A stretch of DNA of 51,940 nucleotides, taken from the sequence record NC_079176; one strand, written 5' to 3'. The notes beneath the pieces are model-generated. The model made no database searches, had not been told where the DNA came from, and saw nothing but the letters and a program-made list of their open reading frames with translations. The number at the start of each line of letters is the position of its first letter. Position 1 is the first letter of the stretch. Source of the DNA: Escherichia phage MLP1. The translations under genes were made by a program, and so were the position numbers. Shown here one piece after another: positions 2,520 through 39,215 of the stretch.

Positions 2520-3527
2520 ATGCCAAAGATGATTAAACTGGCCGACGGTTCTGAATTTGAACTGAATGATGCCATCACCCGTATCCAGGACTCTGGCACC
2601 GTTGTTTTGAATGACGACGACGCAGTGTTCTTTCAACGTCAGCTTGAGTTCATTGAAGCTCAAACTTACGACACCCTGTATCCTGAACTGGAAGCTCGTG
2701 CTGCTTTCGGTGTTGATACTACTGGCGGCGCTGGTGTTAACACGCTGACCTACCGTTCATACAACCATGTTGGTAAAGCTCAGGTAATCAACGCCCGTGC
2801 AACCGACCTGCCGAAGTCTAGCATTTCTGGCAAAGAATACAGCGTAACTGTTAAATCAGTTGGTACTGCATTCGATTACGACATTGACGAAGTAGCATCT
2901 GCTGCTGTAACTGGTCTGCCGCTGGAAACTCGTAAAGCAAACGCTGCTATCCGAGGTTACGAGCAGTATGTTAACTCTGCTGCATGGTACGGCGACCAGG
3001 CTAACGGCTTCGTTGGCTTCTTCGAAAACCCAGACATTACCAAAGCAACTGTTGCTCAGGGTGCTGGCGCTTCTACTAAGTGGGTCGAGAAGACTCCGAC
3101 CGAAGTTATTGCCGACCTGACTGCTGCTGTGTCTGCAATGTATGCCTCTACTCTGAAAATCATGCGCCCTGATGAAATCTGGATGCCTGTTGAGCATGAG
3201 CAGTACATCTTCAACACCGCACGTTCTGAACAGTCTGATAAGACGATTGGTCAGTTCTTCATTGCCAACAACCAGTTCATCAACTCCCGTGACAAAATCA
3301 AGGGTCTGAACGCAATCAAAGGTCACGGCGATGCTGGTTCTGATTGCTTCGTAGTTGTTTGCCGCAATGCAATGGGCAACCGTACTTTCCGTCTGCGTGA
3401 GCCCCTGCCGCTGACCTGGCAACCAGTGCAGCTTCATGGCCTGATTTATGAAGTACCTGGCCGTGGTCGTTTCGCTGGCTTCCAAACGATGTATCCGGCA
3501 GCAATCTCTATCAACTCCGGCATCTAA
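2520..3527 (+). CDS. major capsid protein (putative)
   Basis: 335-aa ORF in capsid position after scaffold/decoration genes; host-like high-expression codon choice; followed by a stable hairpin. Confidence 0.65.
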   Translation: MPKMIKLADGSEFELNDAITRIQDSGTVVLNDDDAVFFQRQLEFIEAQTYDTLYPELEARAAFGVDTTGGAGVNTLTYRSYNHVGKAQVINARATDLPKSSISGKEYSVTVKSVGTAFDYDIDEVASAAVTGLPLETRKANAAIRGYEQYVNSAAWYGDQANGFVGFFENPDITKATVAQGAGASTKWVEKTPTEVIADLTAAVSAMYASTLKIMRPDEIWMPVEHEQYIFNTARSEQSDKTIGQFFIANNQFINSRDKIKGLNAIKGHGDAGSDCFVVVCRNAMGNRTFRLREPLPLTWQPVQLHGLIYEVPGRGRFAGFQTMYPAAISINSGI

Positions 3528-3534
3528 CAAAACA

Positions 3535-3554
3535 GGGCGGGACTATTCTCGCCC
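3535..3554 (+). other. stem-loop after capsid gene (8-bp GC-rich stem, loop CTAT); no U-tract
   Basis: GGGCGGGA/TCTCGCCC pairing read directly; may be an RNA stability or processing element rather than a terminator. Confidence 0.3.
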
Positions 3555-3574
3555 ACAACTTAAGAGAAATAGTA

Positions 3575-4015
3575 ATGCAGATTAAGAACAACGAATCCCG
3601 CAACCTTCAATTCTTCTTCTATAAGAAAGGGAAGTCTGGCAAATCTGAACTGGACTTTATTCATGTTCCTGGCGGCGCAACTGTAGAAATCGACGACGAA
3701 GTTTACAAGTCCCTTACAGAATCCACTACGGAAGTTGAAGAGCTGCGCGAAGAAGTGGTTCAGCTTGATGACGAGAATATCGGTGCTTCTGTTAAGACTG
3801 GTAAAGAAGCTCTGGTCATCAAGGAGTATTACAGCACTGGTAAAACTCGTAAAGTCAACCTGGTTAAAGAAGCAATCAAAGCTGGCTCTCTTTCCATTGT
3901 TGAACGCGTGAAAGTTGGTATGCCTGATATTGATGCTATCCTTGTTAAGAACGGGGTTGACGTCAAGGGTATGCCAGAAGATGTTAAACTGGCTCTCTAC
4001 GATAAGTTGGCATAA
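3575..4015 (+). CDS. hypothetical virion protein (head completion/connector region)
   Basis: 146-aa ORF between capsid and tail genes; start overlaps nothing, next gene starts on its stop (TAATG). Confidence 0.3.
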   Translation: MQIKNNESRNLQFFFYKKGKSGKSELDFIHVPGGATVEIDDEVYKSLTESTTEVEELREEVVQLDDENIGASVKTGKEALVIKEYYSTGKTRKVNLVKEAIKAGSLSIVERVKVGMPDIDAILVKNGVDVKGMPEDVKLALYDKLA

Positions 4016-23921: not shown

Positions 23922-23955
23922 TCCGTGCTGTGCTAACAATGGCACAGGTTTGTGA

Positions 23956-23972
23956 TATTAGTTGGACGTGAA
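23956..23972 (+). promoter_or_regulatory. copy of recurrent 17-bp motif (tATTAGTTGGAcGTGAA), candidate phage promoter
   Basis: Member of an 8-copy family with consensus CATTAGTTGGATGTGAA, all in + orientation; 67 bp upstream of RNAP start. Confidence 0.4.
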
Positions 23973-24038
23973 TTGTGTAATGGCTACGCTATTATAATCC
24001 GTTTCATTCAAATCATACACAATCTTGGAGACTTACAA

Positions 24039-25979
24039 ATGACTACTATCACTACTCAAACTATCAAATCTGTTGTTCCTGCTATCACTGCTCTGGTATA
24101 CCGTGCCAAAGAGAAGCAGAACTACATGGTTCCACAGACTTGTGCTATTGCTGCCTTAGCCATATTCAAGATGATGACGTCTTTCACGCGTGATGACGTT
24201 ATTCCTGCTATCTCGATGGTTGAACTGGCTTCTGCTTCCATTGCTGATGCCAACCGTTACAACAACGACTTAAAGTCAATGCACTATGTTGACCCAGCTA
24301 TCAACCTCATTGGTTTGGCTAAACACTTCGGTTTCATCACCATGAACGAAGACAAATCGTTCCAGATGACTGATGCGTGGGTTGAACTGGTTACAACCAA
24401 AGATACCTCAGTTCCATTCACTGAGCGGGTAACAACTGAATCTCGTCGTAAGCCTTTCGTTAAGGGTGGCAAAGTTAAGCCATCCAAGACTCTGAAAGCT
24501 GCAATCGAATTCCTGCAAGATACTGAATATCACGTTGATGCAACAATGGTTAAGGTTATCTCTTCCATGTTAGAACAACGTACATTTGGTGGCTTACAGA
24601 TGCCAGAAGCAATCCAGACTGAACTCCATGTTTGGAACAATGCTGTAGCAATGGTTGGTCAGGACACTCTGTTCTCTGACTACTTTGCTGATAACCGTGG
24701 TCGTTTATATCACGTAGCATGTGCTGGTCCTAACCCACAATCATCTGACTTTGCTCGTTGCCTGTATTCCCACAATGTTGAGAACACTGTGAGCAAGTTT
24801 AATGCTGATGGTTCAACAACTCTGGCATACAACATGTTCATGCTTGAGCTGGAAGATATTGCTGGTGGAGACTGGACTTCTGCAAAACGTTTAACTTATG
24901 TTGCACAGAATCCTGCTGGTTCTTTGGCTCGTATGCTGAACATGCCTAAAGGTGAGCGTCCTTCCAAGCCATTCACTTATGTTCGTCTGGCTCTGGATTG
25001 GTTCAAGTTTGAGACTACAGGTGAGTGTGATTCTCGTGTAGGCTTTGGCTTAGATGCTAAATGTTCTGGTACTCAATACTTGGCATTCATTGCTGGTAAC
25101 ATGGAGATGGCTCGTGCAACAGGTCTGGTTGATTCTGAGACTAAAGCATCTGACCCATACCAGTTATCTCTTCGTGAACTGTTGAAGTTATTAGACCGTT
25201 CTTCAATGAAACCATCCGCTGAAATTATGGATGAATTCTTGAATCCGAAAGCTGGTCGTAAGTTTATCAAGACTCCATACATGGCTATTCAATATGGTGG
25301 TGGTAAAGCAGCATTAACTGGTTCTTCTGACTTCATTGCATACATGACAGAAGCTCTCCAGATTCCTATGGAGAAAGCTGATGCATTTGCTGAACTGTGT
25401 GTTGAAGCAATTCATAACGCATTGGGTGCTAAGATTAACATGTTCATTGAGAAAGCTGCTGATGCTGCATACAACCGTTGTGTTGAACTCAACAAAGAGT
25501 ACATCACATATAAGCACACTGATGGTCAAGTTGTAATGAAGCCTTGCTTCCCATCTCGTGATGTTTGTGATGCATTCAGCATTCGTGTTGACTCTCAAAC
25601 TCGTGTCATCTTTGGTCAGATTCAGGAAGAGAAACCTTGGACCATTCGTGAGTCCAATCCGACTAAAGAAGAATTCAAACGTACCTTCGTTGTTAACTAC
25701 ATTCAAGGTATTGACGCATTGGTTGCTCGTACTGTTGCAGTCAAAGCTAAAGAAGCTGGTCTTCGTGGCTTTACTTCAATTCACGACTGTTTCCGTTGCT
25801 GCTTAGCTGATGCTCCACTCATGATGGAAGTAATTCGTTCTGCTTATATTGAAATCTTTGTTAATAATAATCAGTTTGAATCTCTATCTAAGCAACTTGG
25901 TGGCATCAACATGTACCATGAGAACATCGTAACAGAAGAGCTTCTGATGAGCGAACACGCTTACTACTTCTGTCAATAA
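24039..25979 (+). CDS. single-subunit T7-type DNA-dependent RNA polymerase, compact form
   Basis: DAKCSGTQY (T7 motif A DGSCSGIQHF), RKFIKTPYMAIQYGGG (motif B), FTSIHDCF (motif C, T7 IHDSFG); ATG 24039 has GGAG ribosome-binding site; ORF track's upstream start at 23952 has none. Confidence 0.85.
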   Translation: MTTITTQTIKSVVPAITALVYRAKEKQNYMVPQTCAIAALAIFKMMTSFTRDDVIPAISMVELASASIADANRYNNDLKSMHYVDPAINLIGLAKHFGFITMNEDKSFQMTDAWVELVTTKDTSVPFTERVTTESRRKPFVKGGKVKPSKTLKAAIEFLQDTEYHVDATMVKVISSMLEQRTFGGLQMPEAIQTELHVWNNAVAMVGQDTLFSDYFADNRGRLYHVACAGPNPQSSDFARCLYSHNVENTVSKFNADGSTTLAYNMFMLELEDIAGGDWTSAKRLTYVAQNPAGSLARMLNMPKGERPSKPFTYVRLALDWFKFETTGECDSRVGFGLDAKCSGTQYLAFIAGNMEMARATGLVDSETKASDPYQLSLRELLKLLDRSSMKPSAEIMDEFLNPKAGRKFIKTPYMAIQYGGGKAALTGSSDFIAYMTEALQIPMEKADAFAELCVEAIHNALGAKINMFIEKAADAAYNRCVELNKEYITYKHTDGQVVMKPCFPSRDVCDAFSIRVDSQTRVIFGQIQEEKPWTIRESNPTKEEFKRTFVVNYIQGIDALVARTVAVKAKEAGLRGFTSIHDCFRCCLADAPLMMEVIRSAYIEIFVNNNQFESLSKQLGGINMYHENIVTEELLMSEHAYYFCQ

Positions 25980-26020
25980 CATTAATTGGTCAAGGATGAC
26001 CACAAACTTGGAGACTTAAA

Positions 26021-26119
26021 ATGAATACTCAACAAATCAAACAAATCGAAAATTGTTTCAATCCTCACCACACTTGCAGCATGATTGATTTATCTCGTCC
26101 TACAGTGGGGGGAGACTAA
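26021..26119 (+). CDS. small ORF (32 aa), hypothetical
   Basis: Initiation region CTTGGAGACTTAAAATG is near-identical to the RNAP one (CTTGGAGACTTACAAATG). Confidence 0.3.
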   Translation: MNTQQIKQIENCFNPHHTCSMIDLSRPTVGGD

Positions 26120-26227
26120 AGACTTCTTAGAATTGTTGTCAGAATATAAACAAGAGTCGCATGTATTATTGCACGCATTCTTGCATAATTCTGGATATTT
26201 CGATACAGAGATACCGTTCTGATATTT

Positions 26228-26250
26228 GGGAGCTTCGGCTCCCTTTTCTT
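26228..26250 (+). terminator. intrinsic terminator (GGGAGC-UUCG-GCUCCC then UUUUCUU)
   Basis: Perfect 6-bp GC stem, UUCG tetraloop, T-run; read directly. Confidence 0.55.
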
Positions 26251-26275
26251 GTTTCAACTAGTCTTAAGGTTGTAG

Positions 26276-26292
26276 CATTAGTTGCATGTGAA
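26276..26292 (+). promoter_or_regulatory. 17-bp motif copy CATTAGTTGcATGTGAA
   Basis: 24 bp upstream of ATG 26316. Confidence 0.4.
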
Positions 26293-26315
26293 TAACAAAC
26301 AATTTGGAGAATATC

Positions 26316-26480
26316 ATGTTCACAGTTCATTATCAAATAGTCGGCAAGTTTGAGAATTACGAAGAGTGCAATACATTAGCTGAAGCTCGTGCATTTGCTG
26401 CATCTTTAAAAGATACGGTATATGTTGATATTGTAGATGGTGATAAAGAGTATCCACTTGTAGCACCTGCATTACACTGA
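26316..26480 (+). CDS. small hypothetical protein (54 aa)
   Basis: GGAG ribosome-binding site 7 nt upstream; preceded by motif copy. Confidence 0.4.
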   Translation: MFTVHYQIVGKFENYEECNTLAEARAFAASLKDTVYVDIVDGDKEYPLVAPALH

Positions 26481-26531
26481 TTCCCAATATTCGAGCAATA
26501 TTACTGCATGTAGTATTGCTCCGATATTCGA

Positions 26532-26548
26532 CATTAGTTGGATGTGAA
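26532..26548 (+). promoter_or_regulatory. 17-bp motif copy CATTAGTTGGATGTGAA (consensus)
   Basis: Exact consensus. Confidence 0.4.
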
Positions 26549-27412
26549 GTAACAGAATACGGAGAAGTATTCCGCATGTCATGTTGAAATCATTCTAGAA
26601 ACATTTCAGCATGTCAACTAAACACACAGTGTTGTAATGATGTGGCAATCATTGAACTCCCTGTCTTTGGCCAGACAAAGTTCCAGCAACCATGTGTGAA
26701 GTAGGAATATTATTCGAAACTGTTCTTCAACCCAAGCATGTTCACTTGTTTCCAATTGAGCTTCATCTCCTATTATCAAGGCCCACCCACAAGCCGGGAG
26801 ATAACTTTGGCAAGACTGGAACTTTTGGACATGCTTCTTTCTTTCAATCAGAATTCGAAAGAAGAGAAGAGGTCGGACAATATGGCAACAGAGCATCGAG
26901 ATTAGTCTCGTAGCCGCCCCGATTTTGAGCAACAAATATTGTGGCAATATTGTCATAGTATGGCATGTAAATATTGCTACAAATTAGCATGTTAGAATGT
27001 GGCAGAATTGTTAGAGGACTAATCACCTCGAAGATACAATTGTCTACCAATCCGGCATGTTAATTTTGTAACAGTATTTGTGCCAATTTCGCATGTAATA
27101 AATGTATCAATATTCACCCAATATTCTTGCAACCCGCATGAATACTGGCTTCCAGCCAAGCGAAGGCTTTATCATCGCATGTAAATATTGTGACAATATT
27201 GGGATAAAACCCTTTATTTATTTCTGTAGTTTTTGTATTAAATGGTCGGTTTTCCGTACCTGTTGCGCCACTTCTTGATGTGCCAAATACATTCAAGGTG
27301 GGAGTAAACCTGTAATTAATGATGCATGTTTGATTGTGACTAAATTCGTCTATTTGGCAGATGAATTGGTTGCAATTAAGCATGTCCATTTATCATTAGT
27401 TGCATGTGAATA

Positions 27413-27429
27413 AGACCAAATCTCTGTAA
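27413..27429 (+). promoter_or_regulatory. 17-bp motif copy CATTAGTTGcATGTGAA
   Basis: Read directly. Confidence 0.4.
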
Positions 27430-27698
27430 ATTCTGCTGAAATTGTGTGACAGATTTTAGAGAGATTATGTCTCCAAGCTAATCATTGTAGTTTTCGGCAC
27501 TTAATGTGTCACATATATAGCCTGTGAAAAACGTGTGGTTTATTGCTGGATTGCAACGCGCCCACCAGACTAGGAAGTCCATGATGGCGGCACACACAGG
27601 AATACTATATAACTCCCTGATTCTTTAAGGTGGATTAAGGTAATACAAGACCTCCACAATCGTTATGACGGGAGTTTTCTTTTAACTTAGGAGAATAA

Positions 27699-32518: not shown

Positions 32519-32790
32519 TTTCAATTGACCAAGTTCCAGTTGAGTTGAGTAAGGCAAAAGGTAAGTTGGACAATGCCAAATCCGACTTGTCGACCTTTGA
32601 TTTAAATGCTCCAGCCGATAAAGTTAAAGTTTTCATCGACTGTATTGACGGATGGGTGCTTATTGAGCATGGAGTCCTTCGAGCATTACTTGTTGATGAA
32701 GTTGCCAAGGCTCAGAAAGCATTTGATGAACTTGATAACCTCAACACACTGTTAAACAATACTTTAAACGATGCGTTAAAGGGTAAATAA
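32515..32790 (+). CDS. hypothetical protein
   Basis: ATGA overlap; helical and charged. Confidence 0.35.
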   Translation: MISIDQVPVELSKAKGKLDNAKSDLSTFDLNAPADKVKVFIDCIDGWVLIEHGVLRALLVDEVAKAQKAFDELDNLNTLLNNTLNDALKGK

Positions 32791-33185
32791 TGAATGTTAA
32801 GCTCGGTCAACGTTCTTTAGACCGACTTAAGGGAGTAAATCCTTCATTAGTTGCAGTTTTCAAACGGGCATGTGAAACCATGCCTTTTGATGTAACTGTT
32901 TTGGAAGGTTTACGCTCTTATGAACGTCAACAAGAACTGTTAAAGCAGGGTGCAACCAAAGTTTCTGTTAGCCGACACATGTCAGGCAACGCTTTGGACA
33001 TTGCACCATATCCAATTGACTGGAATGACCTTGAACGATTCCAAATTGTGGCTGAACACATGTTCAAAGCCGCAGAAGAGCTTGGAATTACTATTCGTTG
33101 GGGTGGAACATGGGAACGTTCATTCACTAAGCCAGTGAAATGGGCTAAATTCCTTGACGCACCTCATTTCGAACTTCCAGCATAA
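32790..33185 (+). CDS. peptidase M15 endolysin (L-alanyl-D-glutamate peptidase, T5-type)
   Basis: SRHMSGNALDIAPYPIDWNDLERF and GITIRWGGTW align with T5 endolysin GDAIDFAPYINGKIDWNDLEAF and GIKLRFGADW. Confidence 0.7.
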   Translation: MNVKLGQRSLDRLKGVNPSLVAVFKRACETMPFDVTVLEGLRSYERQQELLKQGATKVSVSRHMSGNALDIAPYPIDWNDLERFQIVAEHMFKAAEELGITIRWGGTWERSFTKPVKWAKFLDAPHFELPA

Positions 33186-33205: not shown

Positions 33206-33484
33206 ATGGAATATCAGGAAATACCGAAAGAATTAGAGCGTATGCAGGAGCGTACGTCTCGTGCAGAGGCAGAACTCCACCAACATTTGTCAAATCATGT
33301 GCAAGATTCCCGTAGTCTGAGACACGAAATTGAGGTTGGCAGATGCTGCTATCTAGTAACATATGAAGAGAAGACCGCCATCCTGGACATACTAGTAAAG
33401 GGCGGGAAAGGGCGAATCGAACAGCTCAAAATCCTTAATATGGAACTTCAAGGTATGTGGGAGAAACTCAATGCAAAACGATAA
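33206..33484 (+). CDS. hypothetical protein
   Basis: ATG 33206 has GGAG ribosome-binding site (track start 33194 lacks one). Confidence 0.35.
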   Translation: MEYQEIPKELERMQERTSRAEAELHQHLSNHVQDSRSLRHEIEVGRCCYLVTYEEKTAILDILVKGGKGRIEQLKILNMELQGMWEKLNAKR

Positions 33485-34019
33485 CATTACTAAAGCAGTG
33501 GAACAACTTAAGTCCTGGCGTAGAGATGAAACATTATTGGTTCGTTTCTACACAGGCGAAACTAATTCTGAATTTGAAGATGCGTGGATTGATGGTCTGG
33601 CATGGCGGCTCTATGACTTCAACATGTCAGAATATTTGCACGAAGAATATGGCATCGAGTACCCAGAAACAGGGACTTATGACATTCTCGAATCAAACGA
33701 AGAAGATGTTACAGAAATTTGCTTTGTTGATGGACTGTTCAGCATTCGCAGATATGACAAGTTCAACGAACTGCTTACTGACACTGACTTGGATATAATT
33801 CTTGCTGCATTCCGTAGCGATGAAATTGACATTTTCACTGTTGACGACTTGAACGACATGTTCATCACACGTTGCGACTCAATTGCAGACTATTTCAAGC
33901 AAAGTGAAGCACTGGATATTCCAGACCGCCTTGCACCATACATTGATTGGGAAGCAATTGTGAAAGACTTCGGCAGTGACTACATCTTCTCCGAAGGAGT
34001 ATTGTTCTTAAATGTGTGA
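33471..34019 (+). CDS. ardA: ArdA-like antirestriction protein (acidic DNA mimic), tentative
   Basis: Strongly acidic 182-aa protein; C-terminal YIDWEAIVKDFGSDYIFSEGVLF resembles the ArdA C-terminal block as recalled from memory. Confidence 0.45.
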   Translation: MQNDNITKAVEQLKSWRRDETLLVRFYTGETNSEFEDAWIDGLAWRLYDFNMSEYLHEEYGIEYPETGTYDILESNEEDVTEICFVDGLFSIRRYDKFNELLTDTDLDIILAAFRSDEIDIFTVDDLNDMFITRCDSIADYFKQSEALDIPDRLAPYIDWEAIVKDFGSDYIFSEGVLFLNV

Positions 34020-34248
34020 TTTAAATATTAACTCGGTCAAGCCAGAAGATATTCTCTTCCACCAGCCACGCGGCCACTACTATCGAATCCTGTTTGCTAC
34101 AAAGATTAAAACTCACTGCGGTCAGTGGGTAGATGGTTTTGCTTACCAGGAAGTTAAGAAGTATGGAAATCATACTTTCTTTGGTGTTGATTCGATAATT
34201 TATTCAAGACCAAAGGAACTGTTTGACTCAGATTGGAAAACACTATAG
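34012..34248 (+). CDS. hypothetical protein
   Basis: 78-aa ORF overlapping upstream stop. Confidence 0.35.
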   Translation: MCDLNINSVKPEDILFHQPRGHYYRILFATKIKTHCGQWVDGFAYQEVKKYGNHTFFGVDSIIYSRPKELFDSDWKTL

Positions 34249-34318
34249 TTCCAGGCGGGTTTCTTCGAAGTGCCAAGCGGGTTTTGTACTCGCATTGGCC
34301 TTCGGCTTTAGTCTGAAA

Positions 34319-34334
34319 CATTAGTGGGATTTGA
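34319..34334 (+). promoter_or_regulatory. diverged 17-bp motif copy (CATTAGTgGGATtTGA)
   Basis: Shares TCTGAAACATTAGT upstream context with the 34463 copy. Confidence 0.3.
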
Positions 34335-34462
34335 TTCTGACCTCTTAGGGAAGAAAGGCATTATACACCTATCGCCAAATGGGTGTCAAGAACTTTCTTC
34401 ATTTATTTTAATTTATTCTTATTATTATTCTTTTTGTTTGGAATATTGGAATAATTCTGAAA

Positions 34463-34479
34463 CATTAGTTGGAATTGAA
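34463..34479 (+). promoter_or_regulatory. 17-bp motif copy CATTAGTTGGAaTTGAA
   Basis: Lies in an 860-bp ORF-poor gap, about 630 nt upstream of the next gene. Confidence 0.35.
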
Positions 34480-35112
34480 GAAACAACATCATGTAAGCAA
34501 ATTGACTTCGTGTAGAAATCTACACTGGATTACAGGTTCGATGCCTGTGGGAAGTTAGTTTGCTTTCAGATGGAATGTTTCCATCAAATACACTTATCTT
34601 TTAACATAGGCCAAAGGGCCAGAATACTTCTTCGCAGAAGCTATCCACTTGTTATAGGTCAATGTATTGGGATGAATTGGTACTGAATAAGCAAGCTGTT
34701 AGGGCTGAATAATTAGAGGGTTATGCCTCATGCTTATGTTAGTCATTCGAAAATAGGTTTGTGCCACAAGCCGCTGGTGCTCCGAGAAAGTCGGACAAAC
34801 AGGGCTTAGAGTGGCATATTCCACACAAAACCGAGCCACCAGCTACGCCAACGCTGGGATTTGGGTGAATGTATTGGGGGAGGATTATAAAGCCTCTGTG
34901 GACTGTATGTGAATCCTAAGCACCAGTTGCCGAAGGGCTACAGGACGCACCCTAACGGGAATAATCCTCCACCAATGCAGTTATCCAGAATTGACACAAA
35001 CGGTAGGCAGCGGCCCGATTTTCGGCCTTCCTGCGCTACTCTGTGGCCTGTTTCATGGCCAAAAGATGAGAAGAGAAGTCACAAACACTGAATCGAAAAT
35101 TGGAGAGTTCCT

Positions 35113-35433
35113 ATGATTCGCAAGCATTCTGCTAAAGTTTTGACATTAAGAAATGTATTAACGTCCGTTCTAAGTGGGGAAGGTGAGGAAGAAACAATCC
35201 ACTTCGTCCTTGTTGGTGGACTTTGGTACTACAACGGCACCAACGACTTTACAGTAGGAATTTCGGAGAAAGATGGGTTCTGGAAGCACACTTTCAAAGA
35301 CATACTCGAAAGCAGTGCTAAATACACACTTGGGGAAGTTAAGAAATACTTCTACCTCGGGCCAAACAAGTCCATGCAAATTGCAACTCGCGAGTGGACA
35401 ACTAACCAAGAAGTTTACGGAGTCCCATTTTGA
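35113..35433 (+). CDS. hypothetical protein
   Basis: GGAG ribosome-binding site. Confidence 0.4.
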   Translation: MIRKHSAKVLTLRNVLTSVLSGEGEEETIHFVLVGGLWYYNGTNDFTVGISEKDGFWKHTFKDILESSAKYTLGEVKKYFYLGPNKSMQIATREWTTNQEVYGVPF

Positions 35434-36859: not shown

Positions 36860-37724
36860 ATCGATCTGGCGTGCACTGGAAGTTGTCCGGTGCTGCCTTG
36901 AACCCATTCCCAAGAGTGAGTGGGCTTCAATGAGCATTCTTGTGATTAGAGTTGGGAGGTAGGCCGATGCCCAATCTCGTGGCCCCGACAAGAGTGTTCA
37001 TTGAAGTAGTTTTCTGAGTCTTACGACGGGCCTAAACTGCCTGAAGTTATTGCGACTGTTTTATTCATTTAAAATAAATGCAAACGATTCTGAAATGCGA
37101 GTTGCAGCTTAATTAAATTTAAGTTCTCTCCGTGGTCTTCCAATCCCATGTAACCAAATTTGGCGCATTGTGGCTTCGAGATGTGATTAATAAATCGGAG
37201 CAATAATTAATTTGTATTCTGCGATGTAATGCAGACTTAAGTCCCTCAGTGCGCGTAGGGATGTGACAGAGTACAAACTTAATTATGCAGTTGGATATTT
37301 CCGGAGGACGGACGAGCACACTGGAATGTCTTCAATTGGTTTAGTGTGAGAAGCTATGCCAATGTGGAACGTAACTCCTTGAGGAAGTGCTCCTTTGGAT
37401 TTCCCTCCACACAGGAATCTCAAGCCTGTGGCAGCGACTTCGAAGCTGCACTGTATAACCTAATTCGCCCTAAAGTGAATTGCCCTGAGTATGGAAATAA
37501 ACTGCTCTAACCAATGGTTTCCACAACGGTGGAATAAATTAGGTTGCCTGTTGGTACTTGGGTTCAACACCTGCTTGCACTCGCAAAGTAGTGCCTCGTA
37601 CCTGAGATGAAGTGAGTCGGGACCATCAATCCACGGCAGGCCGAAGATACCAAACAGGCGGCTCACTGATTCTACAAGCCTCGCAGTTCGGGAAAACCTG
37701 CGTTACCAAAACCCACCAAATTTT

Positions 37725-37817
37725 GGACGAGTAGCTCAGAAGGTCTGCTCCAGAGCTTAGTCAGGTAGAGCAATCTGTTCGACAGATGTGTCGTTGGTTC
37801 GAACCCAACCTCGTCCA
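37725..37817 (+). tRNA. tRNA-like gene with insertion; isotype undetermined
   Basis: Perfect 7-bp acceptor pairing GGACGAG/CTCGTCC, canonical T-arm GTTGG-TTCGAAC-CCAAC, UA at positions 8-9, D-arm TAGCTCAG...GGTAGAGC split by about 22 nt; candidate anticodon stem ATCTG/CAGAT encloses only 5 nt. Confidence 0.45.
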
Positions 37818-37843
37818 CCCTTAACAACAAACATGGAGTCCTC

Positions 37844-37984
37844 ATGGATTTTGATGCACTTGATAACTTAGACTTCGGTGCTGCCGAAGAGGCAATTGAA
37901 GAACTTAAGAAGAAGCAGGACGAAGAAGCAATCGTTCCTGGTGCTGGTGATAACGACTGCTCAAGTGGTGCGTGTGCCATCTAA
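37844..37984 (+). CDS. small acidic peptide (46 aa), hypothetical
   Basis: GGAG 5 nt upstream of ATG; below ORF-track cutoff. Confidence 0.3.
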   Translation: MDFDALDNLDFGAAEEAIEELKKKQDEEAIVPGAGDNDCSSGACAI

Positions 37985-37992
37985 GGTGATTC

Positions 37993-38365: not shown

Positions 38366-39215
38366 ACAAATGCTCGCCATCGCATAAACAACATTTGGCA
38401 GTCCGGTACGGGACTTTAAATACACGTATATTATAGTCGAGGGAGTGTGCGACTTTAAATAACGAGACTCTAGCTACTTGTAGCATAGTAGGTGTAATTC
38501 CTGCAATTGCTCTGGGCATAACAATTGAAATTGCTGCCTCCGAGGACGGAAGCCCCGTATTGAATGCGTGAAATTCAGGTAGTCACTTCCTAGAACAGTG
38601 GCCGGGAACAGACCTAGACAAAAGTGCTTGAGAACGTTAGCTCTGTCTTGCCAGCATTAATGGCACGTTGGCCGCGTAAAGGCCACAGCGTCTGACCAAC
38701 GTATCGGCCACCAAATTCAATGGATTCGTAGAGTTAATGAAACCTGCACGATGGGATAGGGATGAAGCATCCGAGGCCGACTGTGTAATTGTGAACGCGG
38801 AGTTCACCGAATCCACCATTTTCCAAACAGTTATGCCTCTGTTCAAAAGGCTCAAGTTAGCGTCTGGCATACCGTAGCGATACGGCTCAGTTGCGCTGAT
38901 TGTGATGTGTCGAAAGAAAGTTCAGGCTTTCATTTGAGCTACTCCTCTTCTCGAAGTTAGCTGGATTCAAAATCCAGACTATGTTCCTATTCACATGAAA
39001 TATGCAAGCCAGGGTTCTTAATATCTGACATAGGTATTAAGCGGGTTTATACTTTTCCCCGATGGTCCCCATAAACAAGGCTGATTCACTTGGGCGGTTC
39101 GAATCAAATTTAATAAGTGTCTTGGCCGCAGTGGAAACACCATTTAAGCCAATATATTGTAATGTTCGTAATAGTCCACGTCAGGGCACTTACTTAAATT
39201 TAACTGGAGAGAAAC

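What the first reader, a model, noticed from the sequence alone, without database searches (positions are those of the whole stretch)
34249..35112. 860-bp ORF-poor gap in the early region carrying two motif copies
Two diverged copies of the 17-bp motif share the upstream context TCTGAAACATTAGT, and the second is followed by about 630 nt without a credible ORF. This could be a long leader or a non-coding transcript.
Basis: seen in the sequence. Interest (0 to 1): 0.4.

Follow-up and report, generated by a model that had tools for sequence, protein, structure and literature searches.

The report
Structured non-coding RNA leader in phage
The 860-base gap is a conserved non-coding control region of a phiEcoM-GJ1-like phage that carries promoters and about 640 bases of folded RNA, including a tRNA-like element; the RNA matches no described family and its function is unknown.

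Summary
Window 34249-35112 lies exactly between two conserved genes of a Chaseviridae (Carltongylesvirus, phiEcoM-GJ1-like) phage. It contains no ORF conserved among 20 relatives.

The two motif copies (34318-34334, 34462-34478) are the putative phage-RNA-polymerase promoters 4 and 5 already annotated in GJ1 and SA91KD.

New here:
- The about 640 nt after the second copy is a + strand structured RNA built of modules, several backed by compensatory base changes.
- The modules are a tRNA-like element in a conserved stalk (its slot holds unrelated RNAs in relatives), a three-way-junction domain conserved across genera, a 26-bp stem with a hypervariable cap, and terminal hairpins running into the next gene's ribosome-binding site.
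- Between the two promoters lie a leftward, perfect-consensus host sigma-70 promoter conserved across genera, and AT-rich GGAATA repeats.

There is no Rfam match. No paper was found that describes this region, and no homologue turned up in bacterial genomes.

Best reading: an untranslated, probably processed leader at the early/middle boundary. Its function is unknown. Replication-origin and decoy-RNA roles remain open.

The parts
34249..34313 (+). Terminator-like nested hairpins closing the upstream (early) gene block
   Evidence: Folds to -29.1 kcal/mol. The homologous stretch is annotated as a rho-independent terminator in SA91KD. The TTCCAAGC... hairpins recur in other genera. The simple terminator scan did not flag it, because it has no long T run.
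34318..34334 (+). Motif copy 1, equivalent to putative phage promoter 4 of phiEcoM-GJ1
   Evidence: It is one of 9 same-strand copies of the motif. The phage encodes a T7-like RNA polymerase.
34360..34389 (-). Leftward host sigma-70 promoter, TTGACA-N18-TATAAT (12 of 12), whose spacer is a dyad
   Evidence: Perfect hexamers with an 18-bp spacer are kept in 10 genomes of at least 6 genera although the spacer sequence differs. The spacer dyad covaries: ACACC/GGTGT, ACAGAAT/ATTCTGT, ACAGAT/ATCTGT, ACACAT/ATGTGT. Farigoule has a shortened spacer.
34390..34458 (.). AT-rich tract with direct and inverted GGAATA/TTATTC repeats
   Evidence: Read directly in the sequence. The same repeat family is expanded in 4HA13 and Faunus.
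34462..34478 (+). Motif copy 2, equivalent to putative phage promoter 5 of GJ1; inferred start of the leader RNA
   Evidence: The transcription start within or just after the motif is inferred, not shown.
34478..34492 (+). Conserved leader GAAGAAACAACAUCA, the 5' strand of the outer stalk around the variable slot
   Evidence: Conserved in nearly all of the 17 related genomes compared, although the slot content differs. It pairs with 34569-34581 in the minimum-energy folds of three slot types.
34493..34568 (+). tRNA-like element: 15-bp closing stem (34495-34509 with 34550-34565), hairpin 34510-34525, linker UGGAU, and a T arm at 34531-34549 with the canonical loop UUCGAUG
   Evidence: z = -6.2 against shuffles. 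The same slot holds several unrelated fillings in relatives: three tRNA-like types, a Faunus/Pel53 type without a T loop, and module X in phiA050. The cloverleaf type has 27 pairs, 95.1% paired, 11 of them compensatory. A metagenomic relative has a 49.3-bit Rfam tRNA hit in the slot. The window copy itself is not called by ARAGORN, Rfam or model R1.
34569..34585 (+). Hairpin GAUGGAA-UGU-UUCCAUC, or alternatively the 3' strand of the outer stalk
34609..34660 (+). Hairpin GGCC-AAAG-GGCC (34609-34620) followed by a variable cassette of constant length
   Evidence: No common structure could be assigned to the cassette.
34682..34743 (+). Domain B, a three-way junction: P1 covaries, P2 AGCU-NNNNG-GGCU and the junction GA(A)UAAUUAGA are nearly invariant, P3 is a variable hairpin
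   Evidence: 15 pairs, 97.1% paired, 9 with changes on both sides, 0 of 500 shuffles reach this, slid controls 34-40% paired. Model R2 finds one copy per genome, + strand only. The sequence pattern occurs only in Chaseviridae-size contigs and in none of 185,579 bacterial and archaeal genomes.
34756..34822 (+). Long hairpin H3 (UUUGUGCCACAAGCC...GGCUUAGAGUGGCAUAUUCC)
   Evidence: Minimum-energy and alifold structures. C-to-U changes in relatives keep the pairing as G.U. Alternative alleles in 4HA13, GJ1 and Faunus fold alike by eye. It was not counted formally.
34839..34857 (+). Small hairpin H4 (CCAGC...GCUGG)
   Evidence: Relatives use an alternative CCACC...GGUGG pairing.
34861..34989 (+). 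Domain C: a 26-bp stem (34861-34888 with 34961-34988) carrying a hypervariable branched cap (34897-34949) and a conserved hairpin CCC-UAAC-GGG (34950-34959)
   Evidence: 33 pairs, 99.7% paired, 6 compensatory, five invariant or near-invariant G.U/U.G pairs, slid controls 40-46% paired. At least four cap types of equal length all fold closed. 4HA13, PP101 and phiA050 form analogous long stems from different sequence.
35002..35060 (+). Hairpins H5 (35002-35040) and H6 (35045-35060)
   Evidence: In H5, GGUAG/CUACC changes to GGUUG/CAACC (A-U to U-A in 5 of 12 sequences). 87% paired; covariation score reached by 3 of 500 shuffles. The evidence is moderate because the alignment is partly out of register.
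35061..35112 (+). Purine-rich linker, conserved AGUCACA, and the Shine-Dalgarno GGAGAG (35102-35107) of the gp26-like gene
   Evidence: AGUCACA-N-AWWUUGGAGA is conserved in 4HA13, Faunus, Farigoule and PP101. The gp26 homologue follows the gap in at least five other genera or lineages.

Best explanation
The gap is the non-coding control region at the early-to-middle boundary of a phiEcoM-GJ1-like (Chaseviridae) phage.

Shown by the analysis:
1. It is non-coding.
2. It starts with terminator-like hairpins. It then carries two copies of the repeated, same-strand motif previously proposed as the promoter of the phage's T7-like RNA polymerase.
3. Between the copies lie a leftward consensus sigma-70 promoter, conserved across genera, and AT-rich GGAATA repeats.
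4. The about 640 nt from the second copy to the start codon at 35113 folds, on the + strand, into a chain of conserved modules. These are a stalk enclosing a swappable tRNA-like element, a three-way-junction domain, hairpins, a 26-bp stem with a hypervariable cap, and two hairpins abutting the ribosome-binding site.

Inferred:
1. The phage polymerase transcribes this as the untranslated leader of the downstream operon, with no terminator in between.
2. The two long stalks (27 and 26 bp) would be RNase III-type processing sites.
3. The tRNA-like top half (acceptor-like stem, T arm, GG-containing loop) would be a site for a tRNA-processing enzyme.
4. Processing would set the 5' end of the gp26 mRNA and release small, stable, strain-variable RNAs. 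Their function, possibly interaction with host factors, is unknown.
For: - Taxonomy and synteny.
- Promoter motif: with the annotations.
- Non-coding.
- Conservation above the neighbouring genes. Across genera the Domain B core is nearly identical in nucleotides, while the flanking proteins are 26-52% identical.
- RNA structure with compensatory changes: Domain B, Domain C, the tRNA-like family, H5.
- Strand: invariant U.G/G.U pairs, and an MFE of -219.8 kcal/mol (z = -5.0) on + against -193.9 (z = -3.05) on -.
- tRNA ancestry of the slot element: Rfam tRNA at 49.3 bits and an ARAGORN call in relative L032.
- Stalk-plus-cargo logic: the flanks are conserved while the cargo is replaced by unrelated folds. 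The cap of Domain C is replaced at constant length.
- No terminator was found on the + strand between 34479 and 35112, apart from one weak hit at 35035-35047 that has no real T run.
Against: - There are no transcript data for any member of the family. The ICTV profile states that the family's promoters are not yet identified, so the motif's role and the transcription start are assumptions.
- Processing by RNase III or RNase P is inferred from geometry alone.
- In PP101, Farigoule and Myduc, Domain B lies upstream of the last promoter copy. Farigoule and Faunus have extra promoter copies directly before Domain C. The modules may therefore be separate transcription units rather than one leader.
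- GJ1 has lost the 5' half of Domain C to an inserted ORF, so that module is dispensable.
- The window's tRNA-like element is not detected by any tRNA model.
- Covariation inside the closely related set is limited. The shuffle control does not correct for phylogeny.
Confidence: 0.6

Rival explanations
1. The modules are mainly trans-acting small RNAs, not a cis leader. The tRNA-like element, the Domain C cap and Domain B would be released as stable RNAs. These would bind or decoy host factors such as tRNA-targeting defence nucleases, tRNA-processing or modifying enzymes, or RNA chaperones. The strain-to-strain replacement of cargo would reflect an arms race.
For: - Unrelated structured RNAs occupy the same slot, each closed by its own long stem and preceded by a promoter copy. 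In some relatives they stand in tandem with promoter-flanked small-ORF cassettes.
- The anticodon-like arm varies freely while the T arm, the GG loop and the acceptor-like stem are kept.
- Hypervariable caps keep a constant length.
- An anti-restriction gene lies immediately upstream.
Against: - No target is known.
- No match to any defence-related or Y-RNA family in Rfam.
- A literature search found no precedent of this kind.
- No terminators delimit the modules.
- This reading is compatible with, rather than exclusive of, the leader model.
Confidence: 0.25
2. The first 230 bp (34249-34478), possibly together with the RNA, is the primary replication origin. It would work like the T7 origin (two phage promoters plus an AT-rich segment) or a ColE1-type origin. 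A phage-polymerase transcript from the first promoter would invade the AT-rich repeat tract and prime DNA synthesis. The leftward host promoter and the GGAATA repeats would help opening or regulation.
For: - Two tandem phage promoters 144 bp apart flank an AT-rich tract with direct and inverted repeats.
- The region lies about 10 kb (about 19%) from the left end, just after the early block that carries the RNA polymerase gene. The position of the T7 origin is recalled from memory, not tested here.
- The control region is nearly invariant among relatives.
- The genome encodes its own primase/helicase and DNA polymerase.
Against: - Cumulative GC skew rises monotonically with no inflection at 34.3 kb. 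This is weak evidence, because skew in such phages follows transcription.
- Unlike T7, the AT-rich tract lies between the promoters, not after both.
- The hypothesis does not explain the about 540 nt of conserved + strand-specific RNA structure downstream.
- There is no direct evidence.
Confidence: 0.2
3. The region encodes several very small proteins, as annotated in some GenBank relatives.
For: Some records annotate two to six hypothetical proteins of 29-62 aa in the homologous stretch, for example PYps23T, 2KOFFS and BSBP01.
Against: - Other records annotate none there, for example SKA49, SA91KD and PO103-1.
- No ORF is conserved (intact in 0-9 of 20 genomes).
- There is no third-position bias, and indels are 1-2 nt.
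- The hypervariable cassettes cut through the longest ORF, 34909-35091.
Confidence: 0.03
4. The gap marks the physical genome ends or packaging site, since some assemblies start or end inside it.
For: The flopper record ends at the second promoter copy, and the circular Farigoule record starts inside the gap.
Against: - PYps23T has experimentally mapped 2,339-bp direct terminal repeats at its record start, and the gap lies at 9.85-10.7 kb.
- Mangalitsa has 3,234-bp repeats by PhageTerm, and its gap lies at about 10.4-11.4 kb.
- One IMG/VR contig breaks elsewhere, inside gp26 and with overlap, which shows that such break points are arbitrary.
Confidence: 0.02

Closest known systems
Phage T7 early/middle boundary: RNase III processing hairpins in long polymerase transcripts, and the primary origin with promoters phi1.1A/B plus an AT-rich segment (recalled from memory, not tested)
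   Same: Both phages encode a single-subunit RNA polymerase and have all genes on one strand. Both carry tandem phage promoters next to an AT-rich tract about one-fifth of the way into the genome, after the polymerase gene. Both have long double-stranded stems between transcription units that could be cut by RNase III.
   Different: There is no sequence similarity. This leader is far longer, is conserved across genera, and contains a tRNA-like element and a conserved three-way junction. The AT-rich tract lies between the promoters, and a conserved antisense host promoter is present. The phage is a myovirus with 2-3 kb terminal repeats.
tRNA (Rfam RF00005) and phage tRNA-like stable RNAs, for example the T4 species 1 and 2 RNAs of the tRNA cluster (the T4 RNAs recalled from memory)
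   Same: It has a canonical T arm (G-UUCGAUG-C). In relatives there is also a D-like GGUAG loop, a 5-bp/7-nt anticodon-like arm and a 4-nt variable region. One relative's slot element scores 49.3 bits on the tRNA model.
   Different: The window copy is not recognised by ARAGORN, Rfam or the family model. The acceptor-like helix has 11-15 bp and continues into a stalk, with no free 3' end or CCA. The middle hairpin has a 4-nt loop, so there is no anticodon.
Large phage-associated structured RNAs GOLLD and ROOL, and bacterial Y RNAs (YrlA) with tRNA-like modules
   Same: It is a several-hundred-nucleotide, multi-helix RNA encoded by a phage, combined with tRNA-like structure. The long terminal stem plus tRNA-like domain is reminiscent of YrlA.
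   Different: No Rfam model of these families matches, even at E <= 10. The RNA appears to be a leader fused to an mRNA rather than a free-standing gene. No Ro/Rsr partner is known here.
ColE1 RNA II / RNA I replication control (recalled from memory)
   Same: Both have a long, highly folded untranslated transcript of about 550-650 nt next to an opposing sigma-70 promoter. Both have hairpins with 7-nt loops capable of loop-loop contacts.
   Different: The opposing promoter fires away from the long RNA and would overlap only the first about 25 nt of the transcript from the first promoter. There is no evidence of priming. The polymerase is different.

Membership tests
tRNA (Rfam RF00005 / ARAGORN) | Detected by the covariance model or by ARAGORN | tested here: not met
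   The window has 0 ARAGORN genes and no tRNA hit at E <= 10 in 34100-35250. The homologous slot in relative L032 does pass, at 49.3 bits against a gathering score of 29, and is called 'tRNA-???' by ARAGORN.
tRNA (Rfam RF00005 / ARAGORN) | T arm with 5-6 bp and a 7-nt UUCRANN loop | tested here: met
   34531-34549 reads UACAGG-UUCGAUG-CCUGUG. The T arm covaries in the relatives' family (helix 4).
tRNA (Rfam RF00005 / ARAGORN) | 7-bp acceptor stem with a free 3' end, and an anticodon arm with a 7-nt loop | tested here: not met
   The closing helix has 15 bp and is continued by an outer stalk. The middle hairpin has a 4-nt AAAU loop.
[quoted passage not shown] | A conserved motif of about 17-23 nt, repeated, all in the gene orientation, in a genome that encodes such a polymerase | tested here: met
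   9 copies, all on the + strand, against 0.27 expected. The RNA polymerase gene at 23952-25979 matches PHROG 414 with E = 7e-94. The same sites are annotated as putative promoters in GJ1 and SA91KD.
[quoted passage not shown] | Demonstrated initiation by the phage enzyme | not testable with these tools
   The ICTV profile says the family's promoters are not yet identified.
Bacterial sigma-70 promoter (leftward, 34389..34360) | -35 TTGACA and -10 TATAAT with a 16-18 bp spacer, conserved in relatives | tested here: met
   12 of 12 with an 18-bp spacer. The same holds in 10 genomes of at least 6 genera despite different spacers. Activity was not tested.
Known large or tRNA-linked ncRNA families (GOLLD, ROOL, YrlA, tmRNA, RNase P RNA, group I/II introns, riboswitches) | Match to the curated covariance model | tested here: not met
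   No match at gathering score in the whole window. Only four chance-level hits to unrelated families at E <= 10. Nothing but the L032 tRNA in nine related loci.
RNase III processing stem | A continuous or near-continuous RNA duplex of about 20 bp or more | tested here: met
   Domain C has 26 pairs, 99.8% paired across 21 genomes. The stalk around the tRNA-like element has about 27 bp with small interruptions.
RNase III processing stem | Cleavage in vivo that depends on rnc | not testable with these tools
   Needs Northern blots or 5'/3'-end mapping in wild-type and rnc hosts.
T7-type transcription-activated replication origin | Phage promoter(s) adjacent to an AT-rich unwinding segment | tested here: inconclusive
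   Two promoters and an AT-rich repeat tract are present, but the order differs from T7, and GC skew is uninformative.
Protein-coding small ORFs | An ORF kept open in relatives, third-position bias, and indels in multiples of three | tested here: not met

The most novel reading that the evidence does not exclude
The region encodes a previously unrecognised class of phage RNA. It would be a conserved processing scaffold of about 640 nt whose double-stranded stalks present exchangeable cargo RNAs: degenerate tRNAs, and branched caps that differ between strains. These would be cut out and act in trans on host tRNA-directed or RNA-binding defence or processing machinery. In several relatives the tRNA-like cargo carries a 6-8-nt palindrome in its 7-nt loop, so it might dimerise by loop-loop kissing. 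The adjacent promoters, AT-rich repeats and antisense host promoter might at the same time form the transcription-primed origin.
Probability: 0.18. Interest if true: 0.8.

Novelty: new variant of a known kind. Interest (0 to 1): 0.6.

Why it matters
Chaseviridae phages are being developed against E. coli, Erwinia, Pectobacterium, Yersinia and Proteus, yet their transcription programme is unmapped. This region is among the best conserved in the genomes compared, and annotators either ignore it or fill it with spurious small proteins.

If the model holds, it gives the family:
- a defined early/middle switch (terminator, phage promoters, an antisense host promoter);
- a new family of large structured RNA with clear covariation;
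- a natural example of swappable tRNA-derived RNA cargo, which bears on how phages use tRNA mimicry.

It also gives concrete targets for engineering, such as an insertion-tolerant slot behind a strong phage promoter. Genome annotation can also be corrected.

Tried and rejected
- **Rfam.** Searched at gathering score (whole window) and at E <= 10 (gap) or E <= 1 (nine related loci). Nothing was found except a tRNA in relative L032.
- **ARAGORN.** No tRNA in the window or in the first 22 related loci scanned. A later scan of ten more loci found the slot element of L032 and an unrelated tRNA-Leu in L034.
- **RNase P-like motif.** I considered that GAGAAAGUCGGAC...ACAGGGCUUAG (about 34783-34809) resembles the P4 strands of RNase P RNA. 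I rejected it: substitutions in relatives support the local hairpin instead, and no RNase P model matches.
- **Physical termini.** Rejected, because mapped terminal repeats lie about 10 kb away.
- **GC skew for an origin.** Uninformative.
- **Second minus-strand sigma-70 match (34913..34884, 11 of 12).** Not conserved; the -10 element is TTGCAA in most relatives.
- **Minus-strand ORF 34154-34321.** Broken by a 1-nt indel in half of the relatives.
- **Model R1** (cloverleaf type of the tRNA-like element). It does not find the window's own element. Homology between the types is therefore unproven, and only the T arm and the architecture are shared.
- **Wider searches for Domain B.** Only Chaseviridae-like contigs matched in IMG/VR and the metagenomes. 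None of 185,579 bacterial and archaeal genomes matched. The gap has no match in 5,426 complete E. coli genomes.
- **Literature.** No transcriptome and no description of this region was found. The GJ1 genome paper is not in the held library.
Full report
**What the window is.** The gap region matches 49 phage records at 80-93% identity. Nearly all are Chaseviridae, subfamily Cleopatravirinae, mostly genus Carltongylesvirus, the phiEcoM-GJ1 group. These are 52-56 kb myoviruses with a T7-like RNA polymerase and almost all genes on one strand. In the window the polymerase gene is at 23952-25979. It is followed by small genes, an endolysin (32790-33185), an anti-restriction gene (33471-34019) and a small conserved gene (34012-34248). 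After the gap come small unknown genes, a thymidylate synthase (39495) and a primase/helicase (40151). The gap therefore sits at the junction of the early block and the DNA-metabolism block.

Terminal repeats of 2.3-3.2 kb were mapped at the record start of PYps23T and Mangalitsa. There the homologous gap lies at about 10 kb, so it is not the genome end.

**Checking the observation.** The boundaries are exact. The 17-nt motif occurs nine times, all on the + strand, against 0.27 expected. The same two sites are annotated as 'putative phage promoter 4 and 5' in GJ1. In SA91KD they are annotated as promoters preceded by a terminator. That part was therefore already known, although the ICTV profile regards the family's promoters as unidentified.

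The stretch is non-coding:
- None of the seven + strand ORFs tested in the gap is kept open in more than 9 of 20 relatives.
- Variable sites show no codon phase (58/74/59), whereas the flanking genes show 23/13/41 and 55/46/81.
- Indels are 1-2 nt in the gap, but multiples of 3 in the genes.
- GenBank annotations of the stretch disagree, ranging from none to six 'hypothetical proteins'.

**Conservation pattern.** In 16 related genomes the part from 34569 to 35112 has nearly constant length (572-576 nt, one of 587). It consists of blocks that are almost invariant, interrupted by cassettes at about 34626-34660, 34900-34946 and 35004-35034. These cassettes are replaced by unrelated sequence of equal length. 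The first 230 nt are almost identical in 11 genomes.

The gap is syntenic in other genera: Sabourvirus 4HA13, Faunus, Loessnervirus Farigoule, Suwonvirus PP101, Myduc, Aeromonas phage phiA050 and two metagenomic contigs. In these the flanking proteins are only 26-52% identical, but short non-coding blocks stay nearly identical.

**RNA structure.** Four sets of helices were tested on alignments with the pair-counting tool.

| Module | Window coordinates | Pairs | Cells paired | Pairs changed on both sides | Shuffles reaching the observed values | Slid controls paired |
|---|---|---|---|---|---|---|
| Domain B (three-way junction) | 34682-34743 | 15 | 97.1% | 9 | 0 of 500 (four of five measures) | 34-40% |
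| Domain C (26-bp stem, cap closing helix, CCC-UAAC-GGG hairpin) | 34861-34989 | 33 | 99.7% | 6 | 0 of 500 | 40-46% |
| tRNA-like family in relatives | slot equivalent to 34493-34568 | 27 | 95.1% | 11 | 0 of 500 (four of five measures) | 36-53% |
| Hairpins H5/H6 | 35002-35060 | 9 | 87% | 3 | covariation score reached by 3 of 500 | 29-57% |

- In Domain B the closing helix appears as AUAAGCA/UGCUUAU, AUAACGA/UCGUUAU, GUAACCA/UGGUUAC, AUAAUGA/UCAUUAU and GUACGA/UCGUAU. The hairpin AGCU-NNNNG-GGCU and the junction GA(A)UAAUUAGA barely change.
- In Domain C five G.U or U.G pairs are invariant or nearly so. These would be A.C mismatches on the other strand.
- The hypervariable cap of Domain C comes in at least four types, and every one folds into a closed branched structure. 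4HA13, PP101 and phiA050 build an analogous long stem from different sequence.
- For H5/H6 the support is only moderate.

The 635 nt fold to -219.8 kcal/mol (z = -5.0) on the + strand and to -193.9 (z = -3.05) on the - strand. Taken together this is a + strand RNA structure. The shuffle control does not correct for relatedness, so the numbers show strong consistency rather than formal probabilities.

**The tRNA-like element.** Directly after the second promoter copy come a conserved leader (GAAGAAACAACAUCA) and, about 76 nt later, a conserved hairpin (GAUGGAAUGUUUCCAUC). Together they bracket a slot whose content differs completely between phages.

In the window the slot holds four parts: a 15-bp closing stem, a 6-bp hairpin, the linker UGGAU, and a T arm with the canonical loop UUCGAUG (z = -6.2).

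In GJ1, SA91KD, TH24, 4HA13 and others it holds a compact cloverleaf. That cloverleaf has an 11-bp acceptor-like stem, a 3-bp D arm with a GGUAG loop, a 5-bp/7-nt anticodon-like arm, a 4-nt variable region and a T arm.

- In BSBP01 the slot holds a third type.
- Faunus and Pel53 carry a fold without a T loop.
- phiA050 carries yet another structured RNA.

In metagenomic relative L032 the slot element scores 49.3 bits on the Rfam tRNA model and is called by ARAGORN. The elements are therefore tRNA-derived. The window's copy is too degenerate for any tRNA model or for the model built from the cloverleaf type.

In all minimum-energy folds the leader pairs with the 5' half of the downstream hairpin. 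This extends the element's own stem to a rod of about 27 bp.

**The interval between the promoters.** On the minus strand, 34389..34360 reads TTGACA-N18-TATAAT, a 12 of 12 match. The same perfect hexamers with the same spacing occur 35-50 nt after the first promoter copy in ten genomes of at least six genera. The spacer sequence differs but always forms a dyad. It points away from the long RNA, towards the terminator hairpins. The 55-codon ORF it could serve is broken by a 1-nt indel in half of the relatives.

It is followed, in gene orientation, by an AT-rich tract with direct and inverted GGAATA repeats. These repeats are more numerous in 4HA13 and Faunus. This could be any of four things:
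- an operator-controlled antisense promoter that makes a roughly 100-nt RNA;
- a roadblock against read-through from the early block;
- a hairpin in the transcript from the first phage promoter;
- part of an origin.

**Most likely mechanism.** Shown: a non-coding region, repeated promoter-type motifs, + strand RNA structure with covariation, modular stalk-plus-cargo architecture, and continuity with the ribosome-binding site of the gp26-like gene.

Inferred: the phage polymerase starts at or just after 34471-34478 and makes a leader of about 640 nt. The two long stalks are RNase III-type sites. The tRNA-like top half is a handle for tRNA-processing enzymes. Cutting at these sites would release small structured RNAs and leave a defined 5' end on the downstream mRNA.

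The stalk-and-cargo logic explains why the flanks are conserved while the cargo is exchanged. It resembles the way flanking helices release ribosomal RNAs (recalled from memory).

Three facts argue against a single obligatory fold:
- The module order differs in PP101, Farigoule and Myduc.
- Farigoule and Faunus have extra promoter copies before Domain C.
- GJ1 has lost half of Domain C to an inserted HNH-like ORF.

**Rivals.** A trans-acting decoy role for the cargo RNAs and a T7- or ColE1-like origin role for the promoter/AT-rich part are both compatible with the data, and neither is excluded. Small proteins and genome termini are effectively excluded.

**Comparison with known systems.** No Rfam family matches. 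The Domain B pattern is found only in Chaseviridae-size contigs and in no bacterial genome. The gap has no match in 5,426 E. coli genomes. No paper in the held library describes it.

The nearest analogues are the T7 early/middle boundary, phage tRNA-like stable RNAs, the large phage RNAs GOLLD and ROOL, Y RNAs, and ColE1 RNA II/I. Each shares architecture only.

**Verdict.** The promoters were already annotated. The structured RNA, its swappable tRNA-like slot and the conserved antisense host promoter appear to be undescribed. I rate it a new variant of a known kind (a phage structured leader or non-coding RNA), interest 0.6. Confidence is high that it is a functional + strand structured RNA, and low to moderate for the proposed processing mechanism.

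Noticed in passing
window 34360-34389 (minus strand); equivalents in L026, L027, L028, L029, L030, L032: A perfect TTGACA-N18-TATAAT promoter pointing against all genes is conserved across genera. Its spacer is a covarying dyad, which could be an operator or an RNA hairpin. In Farigoule the spacer is about 10 bp shorter.
   Followed up: partly
L015 about 1795-1815, L001 about 1945-1962, L017, L026 about 1105-1125, L024 about 915-930, L045: In relatives, the 7-nt loop of the anticodon-like arm of the tRNA-like element carries a 6-8-nt palindrome that differs between types: GGUACC, CGGCCG, GCGGCCGC, CGGCGCCG, GUGCAC. This suggests loop-loop dimerisation. It could also simply reflect near-perfect DNA palindromes. 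The window's own element has no such palindrome.
   Followed up: partly
L001 about 1773-1891, L009 about 3466-3583, L021, L027 (slot), L003 1772-1948, L028 about 1570-1750: Some relatives carry extra cassettes between repeated copies of the promoter motif. One is a structured RNA of about 120 nt (z = -6.5) with a possible GUCCA/UGGAC pseudoknot; it also fills the tRNA-like slot in Aeromonas phage phiA050. The other is a 58-aa CxxC...CxxC ORF whose stop codon lies inside the next promoter copy. This suggests that cassettes are shuffled by recombination at the promoter repeats.
   Followed up: partly
L015 2144-2545 (phiEcoM-GJ1): The ORF annotated 'putative exonuclease SbcC' contains an HNH-like CxxC...HH...H motif, judged by eye. 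It replaces the 5' strand and cap of Domain C, so it is probably a homing-endonuclease insertion.
   Followed up: no
window 25980-27698, 36860-37990, 38366-39215: Other long stretches lack a convincing + strand ORF. The first contains three more copies of the promoter motif (26275, 26531, 27393), each followed by hairpin-rich sequence. Its only ORFs of 85-112 aa are on the minus strand.
   Followed up: no
window 23952-24041: The promoter-motif copy at 23955-23971 and a TATAAT-like element lie inside the mechanically called start of the RNA polymerase ORF. An in-frame ATG at 24039 with a GGAG ribosome-binding site is the more likely start. The family alignment begins at residue 44.
   Followed up: no
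window 34663-34670, 34870-34877 and 34972-34979: UGUAUUGG occurs twice, and both copies are complementary to CCAAUGCA in the 3' strand of the Domain C stem. An alternative long-range pairing, and so a conformational switch, is possible.
   Followed up: no
L047 (PP952070, 'Staphylococcus phage Pel53'): A record labelled as a Staphylococcus hyicus phage is about 90% identical to these coliphages across the region. The host assignment looks doubtful.
   Followed up: no
window 34884-34913 (minus strand): A second sigma-70-like match (11 of 12) lies in the Domain C stem and cap. It is not conserved in relatives and is most likely chance.
   Followed up: yes
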